DNA of 64,000 nt, taken from Candidatus Woesearchaeota archaeon. Lineage in GTDB: Archaea > Nanobdellota > Nanobdellia > Woesearchaeales > UBA10216. Both the position numbers and the translations under genes were made by a program. Every line of letters starts with the position of its first letter. The stretch's first letter is position 1. Location: the NCBI GenBank assembly GCA_016184345.1, contig JACPCV010000006.1, positions 64,065 through 128,064 of the forward strand, given 5' to 3'. Shown here piece after piece: positions 1,557-62,324 of this stretch. The notes below the pieces were generated by a model. That model was not told the origin of the DNA. It ran no database searches and saw nothing but the letters and a program-made list of their open reading frames with translations.

Positions 1557-4500
1557 GTGTGCAGTTTGGGTAAAAGAGGGAGACTAGTCTGCTTAGCGGT
1601 TTTTTCCCTGCTGCTGCTATCTGTTTTTTCAGCAGGCGCTTATGCTGTGGATTATGTTGCAAAGGTCCAGCTTTCGCTTGAAAAGTCCTTTTACGGCCCT
1701 AATGAGGAAGTTCACCTTACTGGCAGCGTCTTTCTCAGCAACTTGTCAGCGAATGATACCAGCTTTGTTGCCGTTTCCGGCGCCTCGGTTAATGTTTCCA
1801 TAAGCAACTCCTCCACCAACGGCTCTGTGCTGCAGTCAAACTACACGCTTAACACAAGCGCTGACGGCTCGTTCAAGTCGAGAAGCGACCTTGTCCCTTC
1901 AGGCATAATCGTGTCCGCTCCGGCTGGCGACGGCTACTATAACATCAGCGCATCCTACCGCGACCCCAACAATGTCGAGTGGAAATCCACTGGTGTGATA
2001 AGGGTTTTCGCCAATTCTGTTGACCAGATTTCCATAAGCCCTGCTGAAGCAAGGTATTATTCAGGAGAGACCGCCTTAGTTACCCTCAGGGCGCTCAGGG
2101 AAGTCGGCGACAAGAAGGTTGCCCTCGCCAATATAACCATAAACGGCTCTATGAGGTATACGAACCGCACAACAATCTCAACGTTTTTCTGCACAACCGC
2201 AAATGACGGCCTCTGCACTGTCTCTGTGTCTGTGCCGTCTGCGGTCGGCACTTACCTGCTTGAAGCGAACAATTTCCTGAGCATTTCCTATTTCACTGTT
2301 GTTCCGTTTGAGGCGTTCGTGTACATCAGGGACTCCACTGGCGAGAGCTTTAAGGAGATTCTCAAGGCCAATGAGCAGGCCTCGGTTGAGGTCAATGTAA
2401 AGTCAAACGGCAGCAATCCCACTGGTGATTTTGTCTTCAACGGCACAGTAACAGATTCCAGCAACAACGTCGTGGCAAACATTACATCAACAGCGCTGAA
2501 CAGCAACAATTCCTACACTAACAGGTTTTCCTTTACAATCACCAATTCTTTCGTAAATGGCGTCTATTACGCTTCTGTGACCGTCTACAAGACAGGCACG
2601 AGCAGCAGGGTAAGCACCTCAACATCTTTCCAGGTCAGGTCGTGGAGCCTGACTGCAAACAAGGGCTCCAGAAACTCAGGCTTTGAATATGAGTACACGA
2701 CTTTCCCCGAGAAGAACGTCTCGTTTGAGATTTTCCCGAAAGAATACGAAAATGGCACAGTAATAACAGGGCTTAACAGCACCCAGTTCAACATCACGCT
2801 CACAAGCAAGACAGGCGCTGTCCTTGCAGTAGGCAACGCTACATACAATGCTTCGTGCAGCAGCTCAGGCTGCTACGAGTTTACCATTGCAGCACCTTCT
2901 GCATCGGGAAGGTACCTGCTGTCTGTTTCGCTCAACTACAGCAGCGAAACTCAGACTGCGCACAGGCTCGTGAGCGTCACAACTACTTCAGTGTCGGCAA
3001 CGCCAAGCAACCAGGAGGGCCAGCTCAAGGAGCTCTTCAGCACATCAGAGGCAGTTTACATATCGCTGTCTGCAAAGAACCTGACTTCCAGCGTGAACAT
3101 CACTGACGTGCTGCTGGAATCGGTAATTTACCAGAACGGCACAAAGTTCAACTTTACTGAGGTTGCACTCTGGGATAATGTCAGCTCTAACAATTCTGCC
3201 CTCGAGTGGGCATGGAACGGTTCAGCGCAAAGGCTGAAGCTTGACGCTCCCAAGACTGGTGGGAACTACCTTATTAACTTCTTTGTCAACAACCGCTCGG
3301 CTGCCGCAAGCGCCACGTTTACCATTAACCCGTATGCGGTTTGCGGTGCTGCGAAGAGCACAGCCGGCTCAGTTGACAGCTCAAGCAGCTTTTATGTGTG
3401 GCAGTACAAGACAACAGACACGGTTTACCTTGAGCTCAAGGTAACCCAAGCGCAAAATGGTGTGGGAAAGGCGGCTGCGTCGAATGGGACATTCAGCAGT
3501 TCGTATTACGGCATGGGAATGGCGTGCTATGTTGACACGACAAAGACCCAGGCGATAACAAACGCCACTATAGTAGTTGAGGAAGTTGCCAATCTCCAGA
3601 CAGGGACAAAGGCAACGCTGAACACATCTGCCTCAACATGCTCTGCTGATGACAACTCAGGCACATACACCTGCACTGTGAAGCCTGAAACAAAATGGGA
3701 TGGTGGAAGGTATTCTGTGAAGCTGAAGATAACAGGTGCTGATGGCGCTACAATTGACAAGGCGGAAAGCGTATTTGAGGCCAGGGCATTTTACCTTTGG
3801 GCTTACAGCAACTCCTGGACCAACAAGCCGACAAGCAACATAACCTTCAACGTTCAGATGTACGAGGCCGGGACAAACTGGTGGAGCAATTACGGCAGCA
3901 CTGGCGGCATCACTGGTGAGGTAGCTATCCAGAAGGTTGAGTACAACGGCAAGGATGGTGAATGGCTCTGGCCGCCAATTGACATCGGCTACAATACTAC
4001 AGGGCTTAATGCCTCCAACATCTCAAACGGCAGGGGCAGCTTCACCTTGTCAACTGACAGGCTGCCGAGGGGAGGGTGGGAACCAGGCTACTATGTGGTT
4101 ACGGTAAAGGGCACAAACACGGCATCTGGTGAAATCGACTATGGCCAGGCATGGCTGGGCATCAAGCAGTGGGAAACATACGCAAGCCCGGTTGACACCT
4201 CAGGCAGCGGCACTGGCATACAATACAAGGACTCCTTTGGAACTAAGGAAAACGTGACGCTCTTTGTCAGGATAACAAATGCCGGGGATTGGAGCGACAG
4301 CGGCAACACCAACCTCGCTGGGGGGAGTAATGTGAGTGTTGGCGTCAAGAAGCTGCAGTACTACAAGGGCGGAGCCCTGTCTGAGCTTAACAAGTCGGCA
4401 TACAGTTTCACATACGTCAACGTTACGGCTTCAAGCCCGTGGTATTCAAGCGGCAACTCAGGCACTCACAACAAGTACTTCCTTAACATTACTCCAGCAA

Positions 4501-7397
4501 GCAAATGGGACGGCGGATGGTATACTGTCATCCTTGACGTTAACGGCACTGAAACAGGCTACGGCTGGTTTAACATAATATCCTTCGGGGTTGACACGCA
4601 GCCCACAGATTCCAGCGGCGTGTACACTTACTCTTCGAGGAGCGCCGGGCCTAGGTATTTCAATGTTACAGCCACTAAGAGCAAGAAAACCTCTTACAGT
4701 TTCTACAAGGCAAACGATTACATAAACACCACTGTTAAGGACATAGTGTTAAGTGTCTGGAGGGAGGATACCTGGGAGTCAGAGAAGCTCGAGTATCCTG
4801 AAGACCTCAACGTCTCGCCGTTGTGGGTCAACGGTAGTGCCATGGTTTCAGTCAACAAGTCCGGCAGCTGGGTTGGAGGCTATTATTGGGGCGAGATAAC
4901 CCTGCAGGATTCCGAGAACTCCACGGCAACCGGTTACCTGTGGTTCAGCGTCAGGTCATTCAGGGTTGACACGTCAGTGCGCAACTATACTGTTGACACC
5001 GATGCCAATGTTTCTGTGAGCCTTGACACTAGGCAGCCGGACTGGGGCAATAACAGCGTTGTTTCCGGCAATTACACCATCACGAGCATCTATGAGGACG
5101 TCTGGTCTGGCTCTGGGAGGAGCAGGACAACGTATACTGACTACAGGCCGAACAGCACCGACACGTTTAATGGCACAACAATCCTGAACGTCACTCCAAA
5201 CTCAGGCAGCTGGGGCTCGGGCAGCTACGGCGGCTACCACTACCTTACCGCTGTTGTGCGGGACAATGCTGACAACACCACCCAGACAGGATGGATATCA
5301 TTCAGGGCAGTGCCTTTTTCAATATCCGTGGCCGCTATTCCGAACCAGTACTCATTCAGCCAGACAAGCAATGTGACAGTGAACGTGACAGTCACGAAGT
5401 CGGCAACAGGCGCAGTCGCAACAGCCAACCTGTCAAGGGCGTTTGAGTCCACCTGGCCAACCCAGACCGAGTACGGCTTTGCTGTAGGCAGCTGCACTTC
5501 CGCTTCCAACGGAAACGCTTGCCAGGTAACCGGGACGCAAAACATAACCTTGATTGCACCTTCAGGAGGGTGGCCTGCAGGATGGCACTACATCAATCTT
5601 GAATTCTTCCCTGCAGCAGGCGGAAGCAAGACACAGGCTGACGGCAGCGCATGGTTCAATGCCGTGCAGGCATACGATGGCAACTTCAACAACGTTGACG
5701 ATGGTGGTCTCAACTACAAGTACTACTTCGGCTTAAGCGAGAACATCACAATCAGGCTTATCGTGCGCAACTCAAACTATGTGCCGCAGCAGGTCAATAT
5801 AACAGCGGTTGAGATGTCCGAAGACGGCGACAGCTGCTGGTACGAATCCTGCAAGGCATACGGCAACTACTCATACAACGTGCTTAACGGCTCTGGCGGC
5901 AATGAGATAAAAGGCAATGGCACCATAAGGATTCTGCTAAACAGTTCCCAGTGGAAGAGGGGCCAGCACTCTATCAGGGCCACTATACAGGGCTCTGCCG
6001 GTAATGCGGTAATAAAGACAGGCTATGTGCACGTGAAAGACACCTCTGCCCCGAACGTCACGATAGTCTCGCCGCAGCTTGGGCAGGTGATTAACGCAAC
6101 ATCTTTGCTCTTTAACGCCACTAGCAACGAAAACGTGATATGCAGTTTAACAGTGCTTAATTATGACACGTTCTCACAGTGGTACTGTGGAGGCGCAGGG
6201 GGAAGTGGTAACGGCACTAACTCAACTGAGCCGTCCTGCAACAGCACCAGGTTCAACGGAAGCACCTACTACTACCAGAACATTAACTACCCACCTTGGG
6301 GTCCGATGAATACAGGCGGCCTTGTGCACCATTACAACATAAGCACGGCAGGCTGGGCCAACCAGGACTATGGTATAGCAGCATGGTGCAACGATGCAGA
6401 CTGGAATTGGATTAATCCCAAAACTGCGTTCAAGTTCAATGGCTCAACAACTGCAGTGCCGTTAAGGGTAAACCTCACAAGCCCTGCAAACCCCTCAATA
6501 GCAAACGCCAGCACTGTAACGTTCAGGTACAACGTTTCAGGCCCTTCAAACTCTGTTGCGAACTGCAGCGTTTACATAAACGTAAGCAACGCGTGGGCAG
6601 CCAATTTAAGCGGCGTTATGGCAAACATCACCAACACCACCAATATCACGGCCGTGAATGTTGCAGGATTTAATAACGGCGCATACGTCTGGAACACGTA
6701 CTGCTATCAGACTACGAATGCCTCAAACGCTGCCTGGGCAGCTTCAAACTTCACGTTCAACGTCGTGAACAACGTAACTTCTCTGCCTGTGGCAGTCAAC
6801 CTTACAAGCCCCGCCAACAATTCAGTGCAAACGTCCTCGCCTGTTGTGCTCGCCTATAACGTTTCGGGCCCGACAGGCATGAGCTGCGCTTTGTGGAGCA
6901 ACTCCACAGGTGTCTGGAAGGCGAACATCACAAACACCTCGGCAGGGCCAGGGCAGCATAACGGCAGCCACTCCTTTGCGAACGGCAACTATACCTGGAA
7001 CGCGAGGTGCGAGGAGAACACCAACAGCAGCAACTACGCCTGGGGGCTGAACCGCACGTTAGCCGTGGAGGGTGCCAATAACATAACAGTCAGCTTAACA
7101 AGCCCTGGAAACAACTCAAACGCTAACGCCAGCACAATCAACTTCATGTACAACGTGAGCACAACCGCTGTTTCGACAGTCAACTGCACTATCTGGGGCA
7201 ACTTCAGCGGCTCATGGGCAGCGAACTTCACAAATACCTCCCTGAGCCCTGGCAGCATTAGCGCCCCTGTCGCCGCGACCTATCTGAACCTCAGCACAAG
7301 CGATTACCTGTGGAACACAAGGTGCATTGACGCAGCAGACAGCTCAGTATTCGCCTTTGCAAGATACAACTGGACATTTAAGAGAAATTCATCGTAA
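1557..7397 (+). CDS. giant secreted surface protein (1946 aa), heavily N-glycosylation-sequon-rich, S-layer/adhesin-like
   Basis: 5.8-kb ORF with GTG start and signal peptide LVCLAVFSLLLLSVFSAGAYA. No later TM segment. Very dense N-x-S/T sequons, beta-rich Ig-like texture, tandem C-terminal domains. Confidence 0.85.
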   Translation: MCSLGKRGRLVCLAVFSLLLLSVFSAGAYAVDYVAKVQLSLEKSFYGPNEEVHLTGSVFLSNLSANDTSFVAVSGASVNVSISNSSTNGSVLQSNYTLNTSADGSFKSRSDLVPSGIIVSAPAGDGYYNISASYRDPNNVEWKSTGVIRVFANSVDQISISPAEARYYSGETALVTLRALREVGDKKVALANITINGSMRYTNRTTISTFFCTTANDGLCTVSVSVPSAVGTYLLEANNFLSISYFTVVPFEAFVYIRDSTGESFKEILKANEQASVEVNVKSNGSNPTGDFVFNGTVTDSSNNVVANITSTALNSNNSYTNRFSFTITNSFVNGVYYASVTVYKTGTSSRVSTSTSFQVRSWSLTANKGSRNSGFEYEYTTFPEKNVSFEIFPKEYENGTVITGLNSTQFNITLTSKTGAVLAVGNATYNASCSSSGCYEFTIAAPSASGRYLLSVSLNYSSETQTAHRLVSVTTTSVSATPSNQEGQLKELFSTSEAVYISLSAKNLTSSVNITDVLLESVIYQNGTKFNFTEVALWDNVSSNNSALEWAWNGSAQRLKLDAPKTGGNYLINFFVNNRSAAASATFTINPYAVCGAAKSTAGSVDSSSSFYVWQYKTTDTVYLELKVTQAQNGVGKAAASNGTFSSSYYGMGMACYVDTTKTQAITNATIVVEEVANLQTGTKATLNTSASTCSADDNSGTYTCTVKPETKWDGGRYSVKLKITGADGATIDKAESVFEARAFYLWAYSNSWTNKPTSNITFNVQMYEAGTNWWSNYGSTGGITGEVAIQKVEYNGKDGEWLWPPIDIGYNTTGLNASNISNGRGSFTLSTDRLPRGGWEPGYYVVTVKGTNTASGEIDYGQAWLGIKQWETYASPVDTSGSGTGIQYKDSFGTKENVTLFVRITNAGDWSDSGNTNLAGGSNVSVGVKKLQYYKGGALSELNKSAYSFTYVNVTASSPWYSSGNSGTHNKYFLNITPASKWDGGWYTVILDVNGTETGYGWFNIISFGVDTQPTDSSGVYTYSSRSAGPRYFNVTATKSKKTSYSFYKANDYINTTVKDIVLSVWREDTWESEKLEYPEDLNVSPLWVNGSAMVSVNKSGSWVGGYYWGEITLQDSENSTATGYLWFSVRSFRVDTSVRNYTVDTDANVSVSLDTRQPDWGNNSVVSGNYTITSIYEDVWSGSGRSRTTYTDYRPNSTDTFNGTTILNVTPNSGSWGSGSYGGYHYLTAVVRDNADNTTQTGWISFRAVPFSISVAAIPNQYSFSQTSNVTVNVTVTKSATGAVATANLSRAFESTWPTQTEYGFAVGSCTSASNGNACQVTGTQNITLIAPSGGWPAGWHYINLEFFPAAGGSKTQADGSAWFNAVQAYDGNFNNVDDGGLNYKYYFGLSENITIRLIVRNSNYVPQQVNITAVEMSEDGDSCWYESCKAYGNYSYNVLNGSGGNEIKGNGTIRILLNSSQWKRGQHSIRATIQGSAGNAVIKTGYVHVKDTSAPNVTIVSPQLGQVINATSLLFNATSNENVICSLTVLNYDTFSQWYCGGAGGSGNGTNSTEPSCNSTRFNGSTYYYQNINYPPWGPMNTGGLVHHYNISTAGWANQDYGIAAWCNDADWNWINPKTAFKFNGSTTAVPLRVNLTSPANPSIANASTVTFRYNVSGPSNSVANCSVYINVSNAWAANLSGVMANITNTTNITAVNVAGFNNGAYVWNTYCYQTTNASNAAWAASNFTFNVVNNVTSLPVAVNLTSPANNSVQTSSPVVLAYNVSGPTGMSCALWSNSTGVWKANITNTSAGPGQHNGSHSFANGNYTWNARCEENTNSSNYAWGLNRTLAVEGANNITVSLTSPGNNSNANASTINFMYNVSTTAVSTVNCTIWGNFSGSWAANFTNTSLSPGSISAPVAATYLNLSTSDYLWNTRCIDAADSSVFAFARYNWTFKRNSS
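6468..7394 (+). repeat. three tandem ~100-aa domain repeats at the C-terminus of the giant surface protein
   Basis: Units begin near 6468, 6792 and 7085: VNLTSPANPSIANASTVTFRYNVSG / VNLTSPANNSVQTSSPVVLAYNVSG / VSLTSPGNNSNANASTINFMYNVS. Each has a conserved Cys and a W-N-T-R/Y-C motif. A looser fourth unit starts near 6054. Confidence 0.6.
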
Positions 7398-7412: not shown

Positions 7413-8975
7413 ATGAAACATGGCTATTTGACATCAAAAGTTTTGGCTGCAGCTGCAGCAATTGTTTTAGCTCTGCTGCTGGTTCCGCAAGCCTTGGCAG
7501 CCCTGCAGGTAACCGCCTTCTCGTGCAATGGCGAATCAGGAACTATTAACGTCCCAAATAGCCTGCCGTTCACATGCATAGCCACAATCAACAACCCCGA
7601 CTCTTCAACTGCATCCCTTGGCTCTGTGAAGCTTTACATTGACGGAACCTGGGCAACGCAGGCTTATGATGCTTCGGGCTTTACAACTTCACTAGGCACA
7701 GGCGCCTCAACAACAGCTGTGTTTATCGACATCACACCCACCACTCCTGGAAGCCATAAGTTCTCCTACTTGCTTCTTGACGGAGTTTCAGATACGCTTG
7801 TGGCAGACGCTGTTGTCAATGTCATGGACATAAGGATATCAAAAGTGACTGCAAACATTTCCTCTGCAGCCCAGAACGCTAACTTCACTGTAACTGCTGA
7901 GCTCTCGATTGGCGGGGCCATGTCCGTAACAGTTACCATAGACCCGTCTGACTGCGCACTGGCTACAGGCGAAACTGCCTCCAAGACAATCGGCTCGCTC
8001 ACTGAAGGAAGCCAGAGCAGCGTTTCCTGGATGCTGAAGATGGGCGCAAATGACTGCAGCTTTACGGTTAGCGTTACCGGAACAGGCTCTGGAAGGGTGA
8101 CTGATGACGTCTCAGGCAGCGTGTCCTCAATCAGCAGCGGCAGCAGCCCTGAAAGCACAAGCAGCAGTAGCAGTGGCGGCGGGGGCGGGGGCGGCGGGGG
8201 AGGCGGAGGGGCAGCGCTTGTTGATGAAAGCGTGCTGTTAAGTTCAATACCTGCAGGAAGCGTTGGCACTTTCGGGTTCAAAAAATTCACTGACATCGCA
8301 GTTTATGAGGTTGCCCTCACCGCAAATGTCAACCTTGAAAATGCCAAGCTGACTGTGAAGGAAGCAAGGCTTGCAACCGGTACACAGCCCGCTTCAGAAA
8401 AGCCGTCAGAGGCTGTTTACAAGTATTTTTCAGTGAACAGGGAGAAGGTCAGCAATGAGCAGATAAGCGATGTTAAGATAAGGTTCAGGGTGCCTGAGAG
8501 CTACTTCAGGAAGGAGCAGGTTATCCCCGAAAGCGTTGTGCTGAAGAAACTGGTTAACAGCAGCTGGGTTTCCAATCCGACCACTATGCTTGGGAAGTCC
8601 GGCAGTTTCGTTAGCTATGAAGCAAGCGTTCCAGGGCTTTCCACATTCGCAGTCGTGGGCGAGAAAAAGGCAGGGGCTGTTGCCCAGAAGGCAGAGCCTG
8701 AAGGGGAGGAAACAGCAACTGAGAAAGCGGCTGCCGAAAGGGCTGCTGAGGAAGCTGCCAGGAAAGCTGCTGAGCAGCAGGCGCTGGCAGAAGGGAAGGG
8801 CGCCGGCGGTCTTGCTGAAAAAATCGGAGGGCTCAGTTCTTCAGTAAATATAGTAGGGACGCTTGTCTTAATAGTGGCGGCCATACTTATCGTGGTCGAG
8901 CTTATGCATTTCATGCACAGGAAGATGCCTCCTTTGAAGCTGCCAAGGATTCCCCCGCCTCCAACACAAGAGTAA
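7413..8975 (+). CDS. PGF-pre-PGF domain surface protein with C-terminal TM anchor
   Basis: Signal peptide. The segment AVYKYFSVNREKVSNEQISDVKIRFRVPESYF...SWVSNPTT...YEASVPGLSTFAVVG matches the archaeal PGF-pre-PGF domain pattern. Followed by an Ala/Glu-rich linker, a TM helix (VGTLVLIVAAILIVVEL) and a Pro-rich tail. Contains a Ser/Gly12 linker. Confidence 0.8.
   Translation: MKHGYLTSKVLAAAAAIVLALLLVPQALAALQVTAFSCNGESGTINVPNSLPFTCIATINNPDSSTASLGSVKLYIDGTWATQAYDASGFTTSLGTGASTTAVFIDITPTTPGSHKFSYLLLDGVSDTLVADAVVNVMDIRISKVTANISSAAQNANFTVTAELSIGGAMSVTVTIDPSDCALATGETASKTIGSLTEGSQSSVSWMLKMGANDCSFTVSVTGTGSGRVTDDVSGSVSSISSGSSPESTSSSSSGGGGGGGGGGGGAALVDESVLLSSIPAGSVGTFGFKKFTDIAVYEVALTANVNLENAKLTVKEARLATGTQPASEKPSEAVYKYFSVNREKVSNEQISDVKIRFRVPESYFRKEQVIPESVVLKKLVNSSWVSNPTTMLGKSGSFVSYEASVPGLSTFAVVGEKKAGAVAQKAEPEGEETATEKAAAERAAEEAARKAAEQQALAEGKGAGGLAEKIGGLSSSVNIVGTLVLIVAAILIVVELMHFMHRKMPPLKLPRIPPPPTQE
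8181..8211 (+). repeat. G-run tract (GGGGG C GGGGG CGGC GGGGG AGGCGGA GGGG) encoding poly-Gly; G-quadruplex-type motif
   Basis: Four runs of at least 4 G separated by 1-7 nt, read directly from the sequence on the coding strand. Confidence 0.6.
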
Positions 8976-22617: not shown

Positions 22618-23310
22618 TTAATGCATCGCCTTCTCCATCTCCTCCCTTGCCTTGTCCGCTAATCTGTGCGCCAGGTGCAAGGGCTCCGGCAGCTTGTGCG
22701 GCTGCCGGATTGTTTTTGTTACGACATCTACAGCTGTATGCAGGCTTACCTTGTGGCCAACTGAAACGTATAGGGGCTTTGAGTGCGGCTTTGCCTTTAC
22801 CTCTGCGCCGATTATCTCCTTTCCCACCTTTATGTTCCCTGCCTCGTCTTCCTCGCCGAGCAGTTTTGTTTTTGCAATGCCGACAGTTGCCTGGTCCAGC
22901 TCAACTCCCAGGTGGGAAGCAAGTCCACATCGGAGCGGGTGGAGGACGCCGTTGCCGTCAACCAGCAGGATATCGGGCTTATGCCTCAGCCTGCGGAATG
23001 CCTCTTTTATGGCAGGCCCTTCGCGGAAGTAAAGCATGCCCGCAAGGTAGGGAAAATCTGTCTCTACGGCAGCGGTCTTTCTCTCTATCACGTTGAGCTT
23101 ATCGTCGCAGACAACAACTGCGGCTACCACTGCGTTGTTCGTGTATGCGCAGTCGCAACCGCCAATCGTCTTTACCTCCCCAGCTTCATCGGTCGTGACG
23201 ACCTTTCGGGCTGCTGCCAGCTGCTCCTCTTTTAACTGTTCAATGTTCATCATGAATGGGCCCGGCCAGACTTTCGAAGCCGCTTTCAAGGCTGTTCGAA
23301 CTGGCGACAT
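22618..23310 (-). CDS. nfi: endonuclease V
   Basis: Motifs GGCDCAY, YFREGPAI and LVDGNGVLHPLRCGLASHLGV. The true start may be the internal ATG pair at 23253/23250. Confidence 0.85.
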   Translation of the reverse strand: MSPVRTALKAASKVWPGPFMMNIEQLKEEQLAAARKVVTTDEAGEVKTIGGCDCAYTNNAVVAAVVVCDDKLNVIERKTAAVETDFPYLAGMLYFREGPAIKEAFRRLRHKPDILLVDGNGVLHPLRCGLASHLGVELDQATVGIAKTKLLGEEDEAGNIKVGKEIIGAEVKAKPHSKPLYVSVGHKVSLHTAVDVVTKTIRQPHKLPEPLHLAHRLADKAREEMEKAMH

Positions 23311-23409
23311 CCACCCTGTGAAGGTGGCGTCATAACCACTAGACCACAGGCCCGTAACAGCACTGTGGAAGGTAAAAGTTTAAAAAAGTTATCTGTTGCG
23401 GCAGTTCCA

Positions 23410-52513: not shown

Positions 52514-53533
52514 TTAAAGCTTTGGCGCAAAACCCGGATTCCACTCATAAAATCCGCGCTCCAGCTGGTATGCAGCAAATTGCAGCATATCAACAATTGC
52601 CCTTGAGCTGATACCATGAGTGACTAAATTGGATTCGCCTTGTAATCGGACGGCTCCCAAAATGATTCCGGCCAGTTCACCATGCTTCGTAATTATAGGT
52701 CCACCACTCATGCCTGGCGCAGCTTCAGCAGTGATTTGAAAATCTTGGAGTTGCACAGACATAACTTTGTCATCACGCAGGCTTCCTGTAAAAGATCGAG
52801 AGATTATTTGTCCATGATGCAAAATCATGCTTAAGCCTTTATATCCCGCCGCAACCACAGGCTCGTCTAAGTTATGCGTTCGCGCAAATCTGATGCCTGT
52901 AGGCATATGACTTCCCGGTATTACTGCTTTTAGCAGAACAAAGTCCTGCATATCTTGCGCACCCAAAGAATAAACTTTTGGTTCTGGCGAACCAATAAAG
53001 AAGTTGAGGTCTAGGGGATACCGTTGTCCTTTGCGGTACATTGCCGCGTAACCGCGCATTGCATCCAACATTTCTTCTATGGGAGAGTCCTTTTTGAAAA
53101 GCCCGCTTGTGACTTCACTCCATGTAGTGAGCTCCTCCTGAACAACGTGCATGGCCGTAAGAATAAAGCCATCATCTGTGAGCCGGATGCCTGTTCCTCG
53201 TTTTTTGCGAGTTCCGGTTTCCTTGTCCAGTATTTCAATCAGGACGGTGTTATCCAGTATTTTTGCCTGCCCTTCTTCAGGAGACCCTGATGGCAAGTCA
53301 TTGTCTGCGACTGCTTCCTGCAATGCCTTTATGCTTGCCAATCGCTCATCAAGGGTATCGTAAATGACCATACCAGAAGGTAATCGGCTTTCATTTATAA
53401 AGATTATAACGCCGCGGGAGGGACTTTCAACGCCCCTGCGTTGAAATGCTCCGAACGCAGTGAGGCTGTTTGAACCCTCAAGCCCTTTCAGGCAGTGAAT
53501 CCTTGTGTGGTATCGTAGGTATCTAAAGGACAC
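52514..53533 (-). CDS. trypsin-like (S1/PA-clan) serine protease without signal peptide
   Basis: Catalytic motifs LTAMHVV (His), DFVLLK (Asp) and GMSGGPI (Ser). The start is uncertain: GTG at 53533 or ATG at 53371. Confidence 0.7.
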   Translation of the reverse strand: MSFRYLRYHTRIHCLKGLEGSNSLTAFGAFQRRGVESPSRGVIIFINESRLPSGMVIYDTLDERLASIKALQEAVADNDLPSGSPEEGQAKILDNTVLIEILDKETGTRKKRGTGIRLTDDGFILTAMHVVQEELTTWSEVTSGLFKKDSPIEEMLDAMRGYAAMYRKGQRYPLDLNFFIGSPEPKVYSLGAQDMQDFVLLKAVIPGSHMPTGIRFARTHNLDEPVVAAGYKGLSMILHHGQIISRSFTGSLRDDKVMSVQLQDFQITAEAAPGMSGGPIITKHGELAGIILGAVRLQGESNLVTHGISSRAIVDMLQFAAYQLERGFYEWNPGFAPKL

Positions 53534-53713
53534 CTAAATGCCCTTAGCAATCTTCCGGTCCGCAAGCCTTCTGGACTTGTCGAATCACCGCGATACCAGG
53601 TTACGCGACCGCGGCATGACCCCTTTTGCGAAAAGCGGTCAATCGGAAAACCGAAGACTGCTGCAAAAAAGGTCAATTTAGAAGAAGTAATGGCATCTTT
53701 TAAATGTTTTTGG

Positions 53714-54574
53714 TTAAACAACTGATAGAAGTGCTGCCCCGGCAACTATCGCTGCTGTTCCAAGAATGACGTTTCTGGTTATTCTCTCCTGCTGCCTCAG
53801 CAGTACGAATGACAGGATTAGCGCAAACAGCGGCTGGGTGCTCAGCAACGGAAACACAACGCTCACTTTGCCTAACCCTATGGCGAGGAACATCAGCGTG
53901 AAGGCCGCAGCAGCAAACATCCCTGCAATTACAAACCATTTTGCAGCTTTCAAGCTTAAGGGCACTTCCTTCCACTTGCCAAGCCAGGCAATCACAATTA
54001 ACTGGAAGAGCAGTGCTGAAGTGAAGGCTGATGCCATTCCGCTTACTGGCGTGTTTGAGATGTTAAGTGCGAGCTTGGTTGCGACAGCCGCTGCCCCTAT
54101 CGCTGCTGAGCCAGCAACAGCCATAAGCACGTATTTCAGGCTGCTGGTAACCTTGCCCTGCTTCAAAGTGAGAAGCACTACGCCTGCTATTATCAGGAGC
54201 GTGCCTGAGATTATGGCAGTTGTAAGCGATTCATTGAGGAAAATTACCGAGAGCGTTGTTGAAACAAAAGGGGATGCCGCTATTATTGGCACTGTTACCG
54301 CAACTCCGATTCTGCGCAGCGCTATGAATATGAGAAGGGCTGAGATTCCTGGGTCAAGTATTCCCCTAATGGCAAAGAGCGCCAATGCTGGTGCTGTTGA
54401 AGGAATTTCTAGGCCTTGTAGCAGCACAACCAGCCACAAGACAACCATTGCTGAAGATACGGTCAGCAATGCGGTGAAAGGCGAGCTGAACTTTCTTAGC
54501 GCGTTCCTCACTGTCACATTTGTTAGCGCGAATGCAATGGCGCTTCCTATTGCGAACAGCTCTGCCGGGGGCAT
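53714..54574 (-). CDS. EamA/DMT-family transporter
   Basis: 286 aa, 10 TM segments, EamA-like repeats. The plus-strand 275-aa ORF is its antisense shadow. Confidence 0.8.
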   Translation of the reverse strand: MPPAELFAIGSAIAFALTNVTVRNALRKFSSPFTALLTVSSAMVVLWLVVLLQGLEIPSTAPALALFAIRGILDPGISALLIFIALRRIGVAVTVPIIAASPFVSTTLSVIFLNESLTTAIISGTLLIIAGVVLLTLKQGKVTSSLKYVLMAVAGSAAIGAAAVATKLALNISNTPVSGMASAFTSALLFQLIVIAWLGKWKEVPLSLKAAKWFVIAGMFAAAAFTLMFLAIGLGKVSVVFPLLSTQPLFALILSFVLLRQQERITRNVILGTAAIVAGAALLSVV

Positions 54575-54596
54575 GCGCAGTCGTGCTTCCTAAACC

Positions 54597-54604
54597 TTTA
54601 TAAA
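54597..54604 (+). promoter_or_regulatory. TATA box (TTTATAAA) for the tRNA gene
   Basis: Centred about 30 nt upstream of tRNA position 1. Confidence 0.5.
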
Positions 54605-54630
54605 CGTTTGGACAAAACCTTCAAAGCATA

Positions 54631-54759
54631 AGCGGGGTAGGGCAGACTTCGGCAACGAAGCGGTGCCGGAAGCCTAACCAGGAGTGCCCGGTGGGCTCAT
54701 AACCCACAGGTCGTTGGAAGTTCCAAAAGAACTGACGGATTCAAATCCAGCCCCCGCTA
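54631..54759 (+). tRNA. initiator tRNA-Met (CAU) carrying two intron-like insertions (D-loop ~30 nt; between T-stem and T-loop 22 nt)
   Basis: Acceptor AGCGGGG/CCCCGCT (A1:U72), U8, D-stem GGGC/GCCC. Anticodon arm GTGGG-CTCATAA-CCCAC (G29-31:C39-41). Variable loop AGGTC, T-stem GTTGG/CCAGC, T-loop TTCAAAT, discriminator A. 129 nt in total, against about 75 expected. Confidence 0.75.
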
Positions 54760-54760
54760 G

Positions 54761-54796
54761 GGGCTGAGGCGATATTCGCTTCAGCCTCAATTTTCT
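54761..54796 (+). terminator. hairpin (GGGCTGAGGCG-ATATT-CGCTTCAGCCT) followed by T-rich tract
   Basis: Starts 2 nt after the tRNA 3' end, followed by CAATTTTCT. Overlaps the stop of the convergent LAGLIDADG gene. Confidence 0.5.
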
Positions 54797-55593
54797 AATT
54801 TTGTAGCAGCCACTAAAGCTATTTTAACTTTTAATCTATCACTATTTACATTACGAGCTTGCCAAAGCTGAAATTTATTAAGATGCTTTGGACTGGCAAA
54901 GCCAATCATCTTCATCCACGAAATCAATTGCGTTGGACCGTAAATATGAATTCTGTGAATAATACTAAAGCCTCTTTTAAATCTGATATCCTTTTGAACT
55001 ATATCGAAGGAACGAGAGACTTTGAGACCAAGTAATTCCAATGCAGATGCAATTTCTTCCATATAAGCCCTACTTTTAGAAGCGCCTGTAATCACAGGAT
55101 AATAGGGCAGTGATTTGTAGCGCTTTTTTAATGTTAGGCAAAAATCAGTATCAGCCAAGCCACGGATGTAGGACTTCAGGAAAGGTTGATTTTCTTTAAT
55201 CCAAAAAGGGATTTTAAGCTGGTTATATTTATTATTTGAAGGCAGACCTAGAATTTGAGTCAGATAAGTTGCTATCCACTTTGAGCCAAACTCGAAACCG
55301 AAAGTTCCTGAGTGAAAGTCTTTGACCTTTACTTCTAAGTTGAATAGCTTCTTGAGTAAAGGTAAGAGCACATCGAAATAAAGGGGCTTCTCATCAAGGG
55401 GGTTGCCTGAACAATGAATCCCATACCGCTGCTTATCAAGATTAAGTTCTATATGCCCATCACCTGCAAGAATCCCACAGAAATACGCCAAATCGTCCGA
55501 GTATTCTGTAGGCAATCGTATGCCTTTTTTTATGTCAACATGTGAAGGCTTAACTTCAAACTCATCAAATCGTATCAAATTGCTCATTTTCAT
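54787..55593 (-). CDS. free-standing LAGLIDADG homing endonuclease (double-motif)
   Basis: Motifs FCGILAGDGH and YIRGLADTDF about 105 aa apart. AT-rich. The ATG at 55593 with GGAG upstream is preferred to the TTG at 55617. Confidence 0.85.
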   Translation of the reverse strand: MKMSNLIRFDEFEVKPSHVDIKKGIRLPTEYSDDLAYFCGILAGDGHIELNLDKQRYGIHCSGNPLDEKPLYFDVLLPLLKKLFNLEVKVKDFHSGTFGFEFGSKWIATYLTQILGLPSNNKYNQLKIPFWIKENQPFLKSYIRGLADTDFCLTLKKRYKSLPYYPVITGASKSRAYMEEIASALELLGLKVSRSFDIVQKDIRFKRGFSIIHRIHIYGPTQLISWMKMIGFASPKHLNKFQLWQARNVNSDRLKVKIALVAATKLEN

Positions 55594-55668
55594 CTTCTTC
55601 ACACTCCAAAACCTCAATCAAGCGTTGAGGTTTCTTCCGTTAGGAAAGAAACTTCCGCAGTTTGGAAA

Positions 55669-55762: not shown

Positions 55763-55905
55763 GAGCCCCTCATAAGAAGTCATTTATATACCTTAGCCGG
55801 GCACTTGTCCAGTGTCCAGTGAGAAACTACGAGAATTCTGGAAAATTTTCGGGTTAAGTGCACAAAACCATCAACATTAAAAACAGGGTAAAATATGACT
55901 TAAGT

Positions 55906-56733
55906 ATGACCGAAGAGTCAGAATATTACGTGTATGTTTATATTGATCCAAGGAATTATGAGGAATTCTATTATGGAAAGGGTAAAGGGGATAGAAAAGA
56001 AGCTCATTTATTTGATGAAGGCGACTCAGAAAAATCAAAAAGGATAAAGGACATAAAAAATGAGGGGCTTAATCCAATAATAAGGGTAATTGCAAAAGGC
56101 CTTTCAGAAAGTGATGCGTTTTTAATTGAAAAAACATTGATTTGGAAATTAGGTCGCACACTTACAAACAAGTCGTCTGGACATTTTGCCGAGAAATTCA
56201 GGCCGCATAACACCTTTCATGTATCCCTTCCATTGTTCGACTATAAAAATGGAGTTTATTATGTCAACGTGGGGGAAGGAAGCACACGCTGCTGGGAAGA
56301 TTGCCAAAAGTATTGTTTTATTTCAGCGGGTCAAGGGAAAAAATGGAGCGACCAAATCAAATCCTTGGAAATTGGTGATGTTGTGGTTGCGTATCTTAAA
56401 AAGCACGGCTTTGTTGGAATAGGTAGGGTTAAAGAAAAAGCTGTGCCCGTACTTGACTTCAGGTTTAACGGCGGTTTACTCTCTGATTTTGAACTTAAAA
56501 GCAAGGAGATTTTCAAAAATTGCAAAAACGAAAACGGAGAATTTTTAGTAAAAATAGATTGGATTAAAACAGTTGACAGAAGGCGTGCAAGATTCCAAAG
56601 GAATGCGGGTCTTTTCACAACCCAACTCGTAAAGGCTTCGCTGGATAAGCAGATCAAAACTTTAGAATTTTTAGAACAGGGATTCGGATTAAAGTTCAGC
56701 GACATATTATTAAAAGATATAAAACGAAGTTAA
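55906..56733 (+). CDS. GIY-YIG nuclease-domain protein with unassigned C-terminal domain
   Basis: N-terminal YYVYVYIDPRNYEEFYYGKGKGDRKEAH...IEKTLI fits GIY-YIG. The C-terminal ~170 aa (KKWSDQIKSLEIGDVVVAYLKKHGFVGIGRV) may be a PUA/EVE-like fold (guess). TATA-like TCATTTATATACC at 55781-55793. Confidence 0.75.
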   Translation: MTEESEYYVYVYIDPRNYEEFYYGKGKGDRKEAHLFDEGDSEKSKRIKDIKNEGLNPIIRVIAKGLSESDAFLIEKTLIWKLGRTLTNKSSGHFAEKFRPHNTFHVSLPLFDYKNGVYYVNVGEGSTRCWEDCQKYCFISAGQGKKWSDQIKSLEIGDVVVAYLKKHGFVGIGRVKEKAVPVLDFRFNGGLLSDFELKSKEIFKNCKNENGEFLVKIDWIKTVDRRRARFQRNAGLFTTQLVKASLDKQIKTLEFLEQGFGLKFSDILLKDIKRS

Positions 56734-58312: not shown

Positions 58313-58624
58313 GTGGGTTATAGCAATACAAACGGGCATGACAAGGATAATAACGGTTCAGGCAGGATTTCTTTGAATGATGCCAGGGTAGTGTTTGCTC
58401 ATATGCGGCCAACTGTCACAAGGAATTATCTCCTCAGGAAAGGAGCGGTGCTGTACAGCAGCCCTGGTTCGCAGCAGCCCTTAAATGGCGAAGCAAAGGA
58501 TTTTAACCCTTTGCAGCTTTGGGTTGACATAAGTGATGTTGAAAGGGCTATACTGTCAATTACAACTCCATCAATCAGGCACGCTGCGCAATATCGATTG
58601 GAAGAAATTGTAGACAAATCCTAG
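58313..58624 (+). CDS. hypothetical protein (103 aa)
   Basis: GTG start with AAGGAGG 7 nt upstream. The longer TTG-initiated ORF (58154) would run through the hairpin array. Its stop overlaps the HerA-like gene stop (CTAG). Confidence 0.4.
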
Positions 58625-60752: not shown

Positions 60753-62324
60753 ATGGAAGGCAAAAAGAGGCTGCTAATTGCAATTCTCCTTGCCGCTGCC
60801 GTATTGTTGGCTGCGCTGCCTGTTTCCGAGGCAGCATCAGAAGCTGTAACAATATTTGACGGCCCTGTCCTTGCTGGCTACAAGTACATCACAACAACAG
60901 GCAGCCAGTTTTCGCTTGTTTCTGTTTCTCCATTAAGCAAGGTTGCCATAGATTTCCCGGGTGAAAGCCTGATAGTTGAGAACAAGTCGTGCTCTGCCGG
61001 GAGGATTTTTCAGGCGTGCTACAGCGGGGCAGCTTTCAAGTGGTATAATTACTCGCTGGCTGACAGAGAAGTATACGAATTCAGCATAAAGGTCAGCCTC
61101 GTTGCGGCTGAGTTTACGGTTGCCAAAAGCGTGGAAAAAGCCCAGATTGACGTTGGAGAGTCAACTGTTGTCCATGTAAATATCACCAATGCAGGCTCTG
61201 CGCTGGGCACTGCGCGCTTTAGCGAGGCTGTTCCTGCCCAGTTTAAAATCGCTGAGCTTCCGGGCCAGCCGTGCGGGCTTTCATTGAACAACACGCTCAC
61301 AATGGCGGCTGACATGAAAGGAGGGGAGGCCGTGCATTGCGATTACAAAATCATCGCGCTGAGCCCTGGAACTTACACCCTGGCCTCGGCTGTTTCGTAC
61401 GATTTGATTAAAACTGAAACAGCGAAAGCCACTGCTGCAGTGGCTGTGAACGCACTGCCCTTTTCTGTGGTTGAGAACATCAGCAGCAGCCTTTTTCTTG
61501 GCGAGCTGCTGAACATCAGCCTGCTGCTGAAGCCAGGCGCAAACCTGAGCTTGTTTGTTTTCAGTGCCTTTGTTCCAGTTCAGGTTAAAGTTTTTTCTGT
61601 GAGCAGGGAAGCAGTTCTGGCGAGGCAGGCTGGCGGTGCAAATGTTGCGTATGGCGACAAAACAGAGGTTTTCCGCAGCGATTCACTCATCAGCATCAGC
61701 TCTCAGCTGGCTTATGCCGGAACTTCTGTCATCAACACAAACTCAAGCTGGGTTTATAACGGGCTTGAACAAAGTTTAGTTAAGGATATCCTTATCAATG
61801 CAACCCTTGCCCGGCCTTATCTTAGGGCTACGAAGTACGACAGCGAAGCTGGAAAGCTGTCTATGGATGTGGTAAACCCTGCGCATCTCTCAATCTACAA
61901 TGTAACAGTAACCAGTTCAGGAGGAATGGCTGCTTTTTCTGCCGTCGAGATAGGAAGCCTGGGCCATGCCAGCTTTTCCGGCACTGCTCTCACGCCAAGC
62001 TACACAGGAGCCATAACGTATAGCACCGCTTACGGCCAGGAGCTGTCAGAGCCGTTCAACCTCTCTGTCAACGCGTCCAACACAATTGCAACAACTTCAG
62101 TTGAAGCAAATTACACCAACAGGACAGTGGAACTGCCGGTAAATTCAACTCAGGGGGAAATCGTTAAGAAGCCAAAGCCGCAGCCAAAAGACCTGATGCC
62201 TGCCGAAATGAGGACGGCAATAATCATGGTAGGAATAATAATCTCGATAATTATTATTTTCTTTGCCATAAGGGGCCGTGAGAGGGGCTTTGCAGAAGAA
62301 AACGACTCGGATAAGCTAAAATAA
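60753..62324 (+). CDS. secreted surface protein with C-terminal TM anchor (CARDB/Ig-like texture)
   Basis: Signal peptide LLIAILLAAAVLLAALPVSEA, beta-rich body with N-x-S/T sequons, C-terminal TM helix (AIIMVGIIISIIIIFFAI). Confidence 0.7.
   Translation: MEGKKRLLIAILLAAAVLLAALPVSEAASEAVTIFDGPVLAGYKYITTTGSQFSLVSVSPLSKVAIDFPGESLIVENKSCSAGRIFQACYSGAAFKWYNYSLADREVYEFSIKVSLVAAEFTVAKSVEKAQIDVGESTVVHVNITNAGSALGTARFSEAVPAQFKIAELPGQPCGLSLNNTLTMAADMKGGEAVHCDYKIIALSPGTYTLASAVSYDLIKTETAKATAAVAVNALPFSVVENISSSLFLGELLNISLLLKPGANLSLFVFSAFVPVQVKVFSVSREAVLARQAGGANVAYGDKTEVFRSDSLISISSQLAYAGTSVINTNSSWVYNGLEQSLVKDILINATLARPYLRATKYDSEAGKLSMDVVNPAHLSIYNVTVTSSGGMAAFSAVEIGSLGHASFSGTALTPSYTGAITYSTAYGQELSEPFNLSVNASNTIATTSVEANYTNRTVELPVNSTQGEIVKKPKPQPKDLMPAEMRTAIIMVGIIISIIIIFFAIRGRERGFAEENDSDKLK

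What the first reader, a model, noticed from the sequence alone, without database searches (positions are those of the whole stretch)
54631..54759. Initiator tRNA-Met with two non-canonical intron-like insertions and none at 37/38
All canonical parts are present. These include the 7-bp acceptor with A1:U72 and the anticodon stem with three G:C pairs next to the CAU loop, both hallmarks of archaeal initiator tRNA. The D-stem, T-stem and a perfect TTCAAAT T-loop are also there. The gene is nevertheless 129 nt long. The excess is ~30 nt inside the D-loop (around 54646-54677) and 22 nt between T-stem position 53 and the T-loop (54718-54739). Each insertion has a 4-bp helix (CTTC/GAAG; GTTC/GAAC) flanked by unpaired triplets, which is BHB-like. 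Multiple introns at non-canonical positions are known mainly from Thermoproteales. In an essential single-copy initiator tRNA this would make the splicing endonuclease indispensable.
Basis: partly seen in the sequence, partly recalled or inferred. Interest (0 to 1): 0.65.

Follow-up and report, generated by a model that had tools for sequence, protein, structure and literature searches.

The report
Initiator tRNA gene with two introns
This is a genuine archaeal initiator tRNA-Met gene, probably from a Woesearchaeota (DPANN) genome, interrupted by two short protein-spliced introns at unusual sites; this kind of gene is already known but standard tRNA finders miss it.

Summary
Removing 54646-54677 (32 nt, between tRNA positions 15/16) and 54718-54739 (22 nt, between 53/54) leaves a 75-nt perfect cloverleaf. 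It has a CAU anticodon, A1:U72 and three G:C pairs next to the anticodon loop. It matches intron-less initiator tRNA genes of Woesearchaeota/Nanoarchaeia at about 95%.

Each insertion forms a relaxed bulge-helix-bulge motif (HBh'). A 4-bp exon-intron helix places both cut sites two bases 3' of the helix, next to an inner intron hairpin. The outer helix is missing.

Relatives carry neither, one or both insertions at the same two sites. Their intron sequences differ and show compensatory base changes. The nearest relative has identical exons but a rewritten D-loop intron.

ARAGORN and Rfam find no tRNA in the raw window. My own scan found two more hidden genes: tRNA-Ser(GCU) with three introns and tRNA-Val(CAC) with one.

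Introns at non-canonical sites, including 53/54 and 59/60, are already published for DPANN (ARMAN-2) and Thermoproteales. This is therefore a new member of a known kind. Splicing itself, the EndA type and single-copy status were not testable.

The parts
54597..54604 (+). TTTATAAA, an archaeal TATA-box-like element about 27-34 nt upstream of tRNA position 1
   Evidence: Read. The same 'aaacctttataaacgtt' block lies upstream of the orthologous genes in L014 and L057. A TTTATAAA-type motif sits at a similar distance in most related loci. That it acts as a promoter is inferred.
54631..54645 (+). Exon 1: acceptor 5' strand AGCGGGG, U8 A9, D-stem 5' strand GGGC, A14 G15
   Evidence: Identical to the intron-less relatives (alignment A3).
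54646..54677 (+). Intron 1 (32 nt), between tRNA positions 15/16 in the D-loop. It has a relaxed HBh' motif. Central helix H: 54640-54643 with 54672-54675. The 5' splice site lies in AG|A (54644-54646). Inner helix h': 54648-54654 with 54664-54670, closed by a C.A mismatch. The 3' splice site lies in AA|C (54676-54678).
   Evidence: H and h' are both in the unconstrained MFE fold. Six independent introns at this site all start with A and end with GCC[T/C]AA. H pairs in 100% of cells, and 4 of 5 h' pairs show double changes. The intron is absent from about 28 related genes.
54678..54717 (+). Exon 2: rest of the D-loop (CCAGGAGT), D-stem 3' strand, anticodon arm with CAT at 54698-54700, variable loop AGGTC, T-stem 5' strand GTTGG
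   Evidence: The covariance model aligns this block without gaps.
54718..54739 (+). Intron 2 (22 nt), between tRNA positions 53/54. It has a relaxed HBh' motif. Central helix H: 54712-54715 (C48, G49, U50, U51) with 54734-54737 (GACG). The 5' splice site lies in the 3-nt bulge GG|A (54716-54718). Inner helix h': 54719-54723 with 54729-54733. The 3' splice site lies in GA|T (54738-54740).
   Evidence: Eight distinct introns at this site were compared. 95.8% of cells pair and 8 of 9 pairs show changes on both sides. Sliding the partner strand drops pairing to 19-51%. The intron bases at -4 to -6 covary with T-stem bases 49-51. The intron is identical in L057.
54740..54759 (+). Exon 3: T-loop TTCAAAT, T-stem 3' strand CCAGC, acceptor 3' strand CCCCGCT, discriminator A. 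No CCA is encoded.
54762..54794 (+). 11-bp hairpin (54762-54772 with 54776-54786) followed by a T-run (54791-54794). Probably a 3' trailer or terminator.
   Evidence: Read. It is conserved with about two substitutions in L057. Its function is inferred.
53410..53615 (-). Second hidden gene: tRNA-Ser(GCU), 206 nt, with three introns. They lie at 29/30 (53585..53553, 33 nt), 37/38 (53544..53501, 44 nt) and 59/60 (53468..53424, 45 nt).
   Evidence: The region is 86-91% conserved at the nucleotide level with L019 and L014. A three-way alignment shows lineage-specific insertions. The spliced product is called tRNA-Ser(gct) by ARAGORN. Relatives range from intron-less to three introns at the same sites.
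23257..23353 (-). Third hidden gene: tRNA-Val(CAC), 97 nt, with one 24-nt intron at 59/60 (23294..23271)
   Evidence: Found by my own acceptor-plus-T-arm scan; sequence. The spliced product is called tRNA-Val(cac) by ARAGORN. Model R1 gives a weak hit that spans a 25-nt T-loop insertion.

Best explanation
54631-54759 is a functional initiator tRNA-Met gene of a DPANN archaeon. The organism is most likely a Woesearchaeota/Nanoarchaeia member; the closest named relative is a groundwater Woesearchaeota MAG.

The gene is probably transcribed from the TATA box at 54597-54604 as a 129-nt-plus precursor. In the precursor, the 3' end of each intron pairs with the exon bases just upstream of the 5' splice site. 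GCCU pairs with D-stem bases G10-C13, and GACG pairs with C48-U51. Each pairing forms the 4-bp central helix of a relaxed bulge-helix-bulge (HBh') motif, backed by an inner intron hairpin.

The tRNA splicing endonuclease (EndA) would cut two nucleotides 3' of that helix on each strand. An RtcB-type ligase would then join the three exons. The native D- and T-stems, which the introns mask in the precursor, could then form, and CCA would be added.

Shown here: the exon/intron anatomy, exact restoration of a canonical iMet cloverleaf, presence/absence of the introns among orthologues, and covariation in the splice-site helices. Inferred: transcription, cleavage by EndA, ligation, and that the enzyme is a broad-specificity type.
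For: - In-silico splicing gives a perfect tRNA-Met(CAT) cloverleaf.
- 31 archaeal iMet genes share the same anticodon arm. 22 are intron-less 75-mers. Six have only a 53/54 insertion, one only a 15/16 insertion, one has both, and one has a 59/60 insertion.
- A metagenome scan added three more 15/16 introns. One is in L057, which has 75/75 identical exons and an identical T intron, but a D intron whose interior is rewritten while its helix is preserved.
- Covariation at the T intron: 95.8% of cells paired, 8/9 pairs with double changes, 0/500 shuffles as high, slid controls 19-51%.
- Covariation at the D intron: 88.9% of cells paired, H invariant, 4/5 h' pairs compensatory.
- A covariance model built from intron-less orthologues hits the locus at E = 3e-7. 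Rfam scores the intron-less orthologues at 61 bits as tRNA.
- A structure with both HBh' motifs, the acceptor stem and the anticodon arm folds to -44.7 kcal/mol, against an MFE of -49.4. The D motif and the T inner helix are already in the MFE.
- Two other tRNA genes in the window carry introns of the same style.
- The literature describes the same positions and HBh' motifs in DPANN and other archaea (PMC3239211, PMC5829648, PMC4090602).
Against: - There are no expression or splicing data.
- The outer helix of a strict BHB is absent at both introns, so a narrow-specificity EndA would not be expected to cut them.
- In the window, the 5' splice bulge of the D intron is a 4x1 internal loop (C.A mismatch) rather than a clean 3-nt bulge.
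- The T-intron central helix is not in the unconstrained MFE.
- No EndA or RtcB gene lies in the window.
- The covariation alignments were hand-anchored at the proposed splice sites, which favours the proposed structure. The slid controls argue against an artefact.
Confidence: 0.9

Rival explanations
1. It is a pseudogene: an initiator tRNA gene inactivated by two insertions, with the functional copy elsewhere in the genome.
For: ARAGORN and Rfam do not recognise it. Only 64 kb of the genome is visible.
Against: The exons are 75/75 identical to L057, while the D-intron interior has diverged with compensatory changes. The promoter block and 3' hairpin are conserved. The insertions sit at the same two sites in many lineages and always keep splice-site complementarity. 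A decaying gene would not keep these features. No second iMet anticodon arm exists in the window.
Confidence: 0.04
2. The insertions are not removed. The mature tRNA carries an enlarged D-loop and an extra hairpin in the T-arm.
For: Nothing positive. It is only that splicing has not been observed.
Against: An insertion between 53 and 54 separates the T-stem from the T-loop. The intron also sequesters T-stem bases 49-51 and D-stem bases 10-13. Most orthologues lack the insertions entirely. The intron interiors evolve freely apart from the helices.
Confidence: 0.02
3. There is a single canonical intron, or a different exon/intron parse of the same 129 nt.
For: With lowered thresholds ARAGORN proposes other parses. 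Examples are tRNA-Trp on the opposite strand and truncated tRNA-Met, and tRNA-Gly with a small intron for the D-intron orthologues.
Against: The anticodon loop CTCATAA is uninterrupted. The alternative parses need sub-threshold scores and do not match any orthologue. The two-intron parse reproduces the intron-less orthologues base for base.
Confidence: 0.01

Closest known systems
ARMAN-2 (Ca. Micrarchaeum, DPANN) pre-tRNA-Pro(GGG) with two introns at 53/54 and 59/60, and pre-tRNA-Cys(GCA) with a 59/60 intron (Fujishima et al. 2011, PMC3239211)
   Same: It is a DPANN host. It has multiple short protein-spliced introns outside the anticodon loop. The sites 53/54 and 59/60 are the same ones seen here: iMet 53/54, and tRNA-Ser and tRNA-Val 59/60.
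   Different: The tRNA here is the initiator. The second iMet intron is in the D-loop (15/16). The ARMAN-2 tRNA-Pro introns are described as forming a strict hBHBh' motif, whereas both iMet introns here lack the outer helix. ARMAN-2 uses an epsilon2 EndA; the enzyme here is unknown.
Thermoproteales multi-intron tRNA genes (Sugahara et al. 2008, as reviewed in PMC4033280 and PMC4090602; statistics in PMC8450103)
   Same: There are up to three introns per tRNA gene at non-canonical sites. Motifs are relaxed HBh'/hBH. Related introns occur at the same site in different tRNAs. Many genes are missed by ordinary tRNA finders.
   Different: The host is in a different superphylum (TACK, hyperthermophiles), with an (alpha-beta)2 EndA carrying the Crenarchaea-specific loop. 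The window here is from a roughly 49% GC DPANN genome.
Methanopyrus kandleri pre-tRNA-Glu(UUC) with a relaxed HBh' intron in the D-loop plus a canonical intron (Kaneta et al. 2018, PMC5829648)
   Same: It has an HBh'-type intron inside the D-loop. That intron was shown biochemically to need a broad-specificity EndA for efficient removal.
   Different: The M. kandleri intron is near 20/21 and is accompanied by a 37/38 intron. The iMet gene here has none at 37/38.
Disrupted initiator tRNA genes in other archaea, for example the circularly permuted tRNA-iMet of Thermofilum pendens (Chan et al. 2011, cited in PMC4090602)
   Same: The essential initiator tRNA is encoded in a form that depends on EndA processing in the T-arm region.
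   Different: The T. pendens gene is permuted rather than interrupted. The gene order here is collinear.

Membership tests
Archaeal initiator tRNA-Met | CAU anticodon in a 7-nt loop on a 5-bp stem with three consecutive G:C pairs (29-31:39-41) | tested here: met
   GTGGG CTCATAA CCCAC at 54691-54707; cloverleaf.
Archaeal initiator tRNA-Met | A1:U72 at the end of the acceptor stem | tested here: met
   A at 54631 pairs with T at 54758. The same pair is present in all 31 related archaeal genes.
Archaeal initiator tRNA-Met | Complete cloverleaf recognised by a tRNA model after intron removal, and orthology to recognised iMet genes | tested here: met
   ARAGORN calls the spliced sequence tRNA-Met. 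It is 71/75 identical to the intron-less gene in L041. The intron-less genes in L011 and L053 score 61 bits with Rfam tRNA. Model R1, built from intron-less relatives, hits the raw locus at E = 3e-7. tRNAscan-SE's isotype-specific iMet model could not be run.
Archaeal initiator tRNA-Met | Used for translation initiation (aminoacylated with Met, bound by a/eIF2) | not testable with these tools
   This needs biochemistry.
Archaeal protein-spliced (BHB-type) tRNA intron | A 4-bp central helix, with each splice site two nucleotides 3' of its strand of that helix | tested here: met
   D intron: G10-C13 with GCCU, cuts at AG|A and AA|C. T intron: C48-U51 with GACG, cuts at GG|A and GA|U. Across relatives, H pairs in 100% of cells for D and 90.6% for T, with compensatory changes in T.
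Archaeal protein-spliced (BHB-type) tRNA intron | Inner helix h' closing the 3-nt bulge that holds the 5' splice site | tested here: met
   T intron: 5-bp AGUUC/GAACU directly after the bulge GG|A, paired in 100% of cells in 8 relatives. D intron: a 7-bp helix preceded by a C.A mismatch, so the bulge is a 4x1 loop in the window and L057 but a clean bulge in L014, L019, L056 and L058.
Archaeal protein-spliced (BHB-type) tRNA intron | Outer helix h closing the second 3-nt bulge (the strict hBHBh' form) | tested here: not met
   No pairing is available between the bases 5' of H and the bases 3' of the 3' splice site at either intron (sequence inspection). Both are therefore the relaxed HBh' form, a recognised subclass (PMC5829648, PMC4090602).
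Archaeal protein-spliced (BHB-type) tRNA intron | Exact excision restores a canonical tRNA, and orthologues exist without the intron | tested here: met
Archaeal protein-spliced (BHB-type) tRNA intron | Cleaved by EndA and ligated by RtcB in vivo, with a broad-specificity EndA in the genome | not testable with these tools
   No tRNA_int_endo or RtcB domain appears among the window ORFs scanned with Pfam. The rest of the genome is not available.

The most novel reading that the evidence does not exclude
This Woesearchaeal lineage may carry a tRNA-intron load as high as, or higher than, Thermoproteales. All three tRNA genes found in 64 kb are disrupted, with six introns, about two per gene.

The introns sit at a few recurrent hot-spots: 15/16, 29/30, 37/38, 53/54 and 59/60. 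They appear to turn over quickly. The D intron is rewritten between genes whose exons are identical. The 59/60 introns of tRNA-Ser and tRNA-Val look alike (CAGCC...GAAAG).

That would imply active intron gain or mobility in DPANN, handled by a still uncharacterised broad-specificity EndA. It would also imply systematic under-counting of tRNAs in DPANN MAGs.
Probability: 0.4. Interest if true: 0.55.

Novelty: new member of a known kind. Interest (0 to 1): 0.37.

Why it matters
There are two reasons, one practical and one biological.

Practical: ARAGORN and the Rfam tRNA model see none of the three tRNA genes in this window. With intron search turned on, ARAGORN mis-calls the D-intron iMet orthologues as tRNA-Gly. 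tRNA counts feed MAG quality standards and inferences about translational capacity, so DPANN genomes like this one will look poorer in tRNAs than they are.

Biological: the initiator tRNA, tRNA-Ser(GCU) and tRNA-Val(CAC) all depend on cutting at relaxed HBh' motifs. This predicts a broad-specificity splicing endonuclease in this lineage.

The set of orthologues with 0, 1, 2 or 3 introns at fixed sites is a clean natural series for studying how archaeal tRNA introns are gained, lost and replaced. It does not reveal a new mechanism.

Tried and rejected
- ARAGORN was run on the raw window and on the region with intron options and lowered thresholds. It gave nothing, or spurious parses: tRNA-Trp on the opposite strand, and a 'tRNA-Leu(cag) with a 114-nt intron' that is really the three-intron tRNA-Ser.
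- Rfam at gathering and at E <= 10 found nothing at the locus. The only weak hit near tRNA-Ser was a Tetrahymena snoRNA model at E = 5.7, treated as chance.
- An exact look-up of the neighbouring EamA protein returned only sub-1-kb Logan contigs that end just before the tRNA. They gave no context.
- I searched the window for a second iMet anticodon arm, and for att-like repeats of tRNA or intron pieces that would mark an integrated element. None was found.
- A single-canonical-intron parse was rejected because the anticodon loop is intact.
- My acceptor-plus-T-arm scan also flagged 58588..58469(-) and 60919..61070(+). Neither has a cloverleaf, so both were rejected as false positives.
- The first version of that scan timed out.
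- I looked for EndA or RtcB among 63 of the 64 non-overlapping window ORFs of 90 aa or more, using Pfam. The exception is the 1946-aa ORF at 1557-7397, which was not scanned. None was seen. The two batch scans list only the top 25 families each, so a weak hit could have been hidden.
- I could not confirm from the papers available whether position 15/16 has been reported before. The review list I read names 20/21, 22/23, 25/26, 29/30, 30/31, 45/46, 53/54, 56/57 and 59/60 'etc.' (PMC4090602).

Full report
**1. The observation**

- Acceptor AGCGGGG/CCCCGCT with A1:U72, and a discriminator A.
- D-stem GGGC/GCCC.
- Anticodon arm GTGGG-CTCATAA-CCCAC, with three G:C pairs next to the loop and CAT at 54698-54700.
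- Variable loop AGGTC.
- T-stem GTTGG/CCAGC and T-loop TTCAAAT.

The excess sequence is 32 nt inside the D-loop (54646-54677) and 22 nt between T-stem base 53 and the T-loop (54718-54739).

Standard tools do not see a tRNA. ARAGORN finds no gene in the whole 64-kb window. Rfam finds nothing at gathering score, and nothing at E <= 10 in 54500-54900. ARAGORN with intron options gives only sub-threshold alternative parses.

When the two stretches are deleted in silico, the 75-nt product is drawn by ARAGORN as a perfect tRNA-Met(CAT) cloverleaf.

**2. Splice-site anatomy**

Below, precursor numbering sets position 1 at 54631.

In the canonical archaeal motif each strand runs helix, then 4-bp central helix H, then a 3-nt bulge cut after its second base, then helix. 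This is established knowledge and is summarised in PMC5829648.

Both insertions fit this geometry at exactly the cuts that restore the tRNA.

D intron:
- H is G10-C13 with G42-U45 (window 54640-54643 with 54672-54675).
- The 5' cut lies in A14 G15|A16.
- The inner helix h' is U18-A24 with U34-A40, after a C17.A41 mismatch.
- The 3' cut lies in A46 A47|C48.

T intron:
- H is C82-U85 (tRNA bases C48, G49, U50, U51) with G104-G107.
- The 5' cut lies in the bulge G86 G87|A88.
- h' is A89-C93 with G99-U103.
- The 3' cut lies in G108 A109|U110.

Neither intron has an outer helix closing the 3' splice site. Both are therefore the relaxed HBh' form.

The D motif and the T inner hairpin appear in the unconstrained MFE. 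A fold forced to contain both motifs, the acceptor stem and the anticodon arm reaches -44.7 kcal/mol, against an MFE of -49.4.

**3. Relatives**

I scanned one genome per species for the anticodon arm GTGGGCTCATAACCCACAGRTC. This gave 49 loci. Thirty-one are archaeal iMet genes. They are mostly labelled Woesearchaeota or Nanoarchaeia; the rest of the 49 are mostly bacterial tRNA-fMet genes.

Among the 31 archaeal genes:
- 22 are intron-less 75-mers.
- Six have an insertion only at 53/54: L008, L023, L028, L031, L042, L054.
- One has an insertion only at 15/16: L014.
- One has both: L019.
- One has an insertion at 59/60: L010.

The spliced window sequence differs from the intron-less gene in L041 at only four T-stem positions (71/75 identical).

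L014 is a groundwater Woesearchaeota MAG. It shares the promoter block and is syntenic with the window, with 79% DNA identity over the RNase HII gene. This is the basis for the taxonomic assignment.

A metagenome scan aimed at 15/16 insertions added L056, L057 and L058. L057 is the closest relative. Its exons are 75/75 identical, and its T intron and 3' hairpin are also conserved. Its D-intron interior is a different sequence that keeps the same helix, including the C.A mismatch.

Rfam and ARAGORN detect the intron-less genes (61 bits). ARAGORN misses every insertion-bearing gene tested; Rfam misses them too, apart from a borderline 29.8-bit hit on the D-intron gene of L014.

**4. Covariation**

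I built equal-length constructs anchored at the proposed splice sites and counted pairs.

T intron, 8 distinct sequences:
- 95.8% of cells pair.
- 8 of 9 pairs show changes on both sides.
- No shuffle of 500 reaches the observed score.
- Sliding the partner strand by 1-3 columns drops pairing to 19-51%.
- T-stem bases 49-51 covary with intron bases -4 to -6.

D intron, 6 sequences:
- H is invariant and 100% paired.
- 4 of 5 h' pairs show double changes.
- 88.9% of cells pair, against 35-46% when slid.

Caveat: the structure was derived from these same sequences, and the constructs were hand-anchored.

**5. Covariance model**

I built model R1 from 19 intron-less relatives. With filters off, it hits 54668-54753 at 33.7 bits, E = 3e-7, and bridges the T insertion.

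**6. Context**

- A TTTATAAA box lies at 54597-54604. It is conserved in L014 and L057.
- A conserved hairpin plus T-run follows the gene.
- No CCA is encoded.
- No second iMet anticodon arm and no att-like repeat of the tRNA occur in the window.
- No EndA or RtcB domain was seen among the window ORFs scanned with Pfam.

The EndA type and the single-copy claim therefore remain untested.

**7. Other hidden tRNA genes**

High nucleotide conservation of 53469-53616 with L019 and L014 led to a second gene. It is tRNA-Ser(GCU) on the minus strand, 53615..53410. It has introns at 29/30, 37/38 and 59/60. The spliced product is called tRNA-Ser by ARAGORN.

My own acceptor-plus-T-arm scan recovered both genes and found a third. 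It is tRNA-Val(CAC), 23353..23257, with a 24-nt intron at 59/60.

The H helix of the 59/60 introns pairs T-loop bases 54-57 with intron bases UGAA (Ser) or CGAA (Val). This tracks the A57/G57 difference between the two tRNAs.

Across 33 DPANN loci, iMet and tRNA-Ser(GCU) are frequent neighbours. The Ser gene ranges from intron-less to three introns at the same three sites. L031 holds a tRNA-Phe(GAA) with a 53/54 intron.

**8. Comparison with what is known**

- Non-canonical sites including 29/30, 53/54 and 59/60 are listed in reviews (PMC4090602).
- ARMAN-2, a DPANN archaeon, has a tRNA-Pro with introns at 53/54 and 59/60, and an epsilon2 EndA of broad specificity (PMC3239211).
- Kaneta et al. 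2018 surveyed DPANN genomes including a Woesearchaeota genome. They linked alpha4 EndAs carrying an extra loop (L3) to increased tRNA gene disruption. They also noted that incomplete tRNA sets point to undetected disrupted genes (PMC5829648).
- Up to three introns per gene, and 0.84 introns per gene on average, are reported for Thermoproteales (PMC8450103).

The locus passes every testable feature of 'archaeal initiator tRNA' and of 'relaxed HBh' protein-spliced intron'. It fails only the strict-BHB outer helix.

**9. Verdict**

It is a new member of a known kind.

What is mildly new:
- The combination of 15/16 and 53/54 introns in an initiator tRNA.
- The apparent density of introns in this genome.
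- The clear presence/absence series among Woesearchaeota.

I could not verify whether 15/16 has been reported before.

Noticed in passing
window 53410-53615 (-): A hidden tRNA-Ser(GCU) gene with three introns: 29/30 at 53585..53553, 37/38 at 53544..53501 and 59/60 at 53468..53424. Rfam misses it and default ARAGORN finds nothing; at a lowered threshold ARAGORN mis-parses it as tRNA-Leu(cag). The 37/38 intron sequence is conserved in L014 and L019. L014 has a further insertion of about 43 nt inside it.
   Followed up: yes
window 23257-23353 (-): A hidden tRNA-Val(CAC) gene with a 24-nt intron at 59/60 (23294..23271). The intron starts CAGCC and ends GAAAG, like the 59/60 intron of tRNA-Ser in the same window. 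The two introns may be related.
   Followed up: partly
window 52514-53533 (-): The mechanical 339-aa ORF (trypsin-like peptidase) overlaps the tRNA-Ser gene. Its real start is probably the ATG near 53392, just after a TTTATAAA box that follows the tRNA.
   Followed up: no
window 54787-55617 (-) and 55858-56733 (+): Directly downstream of the iMet gene lie an ORF with a weak LAGLIDADG_3 match (E = 2.8e-4, below the Pfam cutoff) and an ORF with a LEM-3-like GIY-YIG nuclease domain. The region has lower GC (0.42-0.44). No att-like repeat of the tRNA was found, so a mobile-element origin is unproven.
   Followed up: partly
L001-L006 (Logan contigs carrying the EamA gene, window 53714-54574): All six public contigs with the identical neighbouring protein are under 1 kb. 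They end about 30-45 nt upstream of the gene, just short of the tRNA. This suggests that assemblies break at the tRNA.
   Followed up: no
L014 2341-2447, L056 6816-6924, L058 577-675: With intron search on, ARAGORN mis-calls the iMet genes that carry the 15/16 intron as tRNA-Gly with a 5-9-nt intron. This is a concrete mis-annotation risk for such genomes.
   Followed up: partly
L031 3422-3526 (-): A tRNA-Phe(GAA) gene with a 31-nt insertion at 53/54. It starts with A and ends GGAA, the same style as the iMet T introns. The 53/54 site is therefore used in more than one tRNA species.
   Followed up: no
L008, L011, L014, L019-L022, L026, L028, L030, L032, L041, L042, L047, L055, L056, L058: iMet and tRNA-Ser(GCU) are neighbours, usually within about 2 kb, in many Woesearchaeota/Nanoarchaeia genomes. 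The Ser gene has 0 to 3 introns at 29/30, 37/38 and 59/60, depending on the genome.
   Followed up: partly
window 1557-7397 (+): A 1946-aa ORF that I did not examine. The adjacent 520-aa ORF (7413-8975) has no Pfam match.
   Followed up: no
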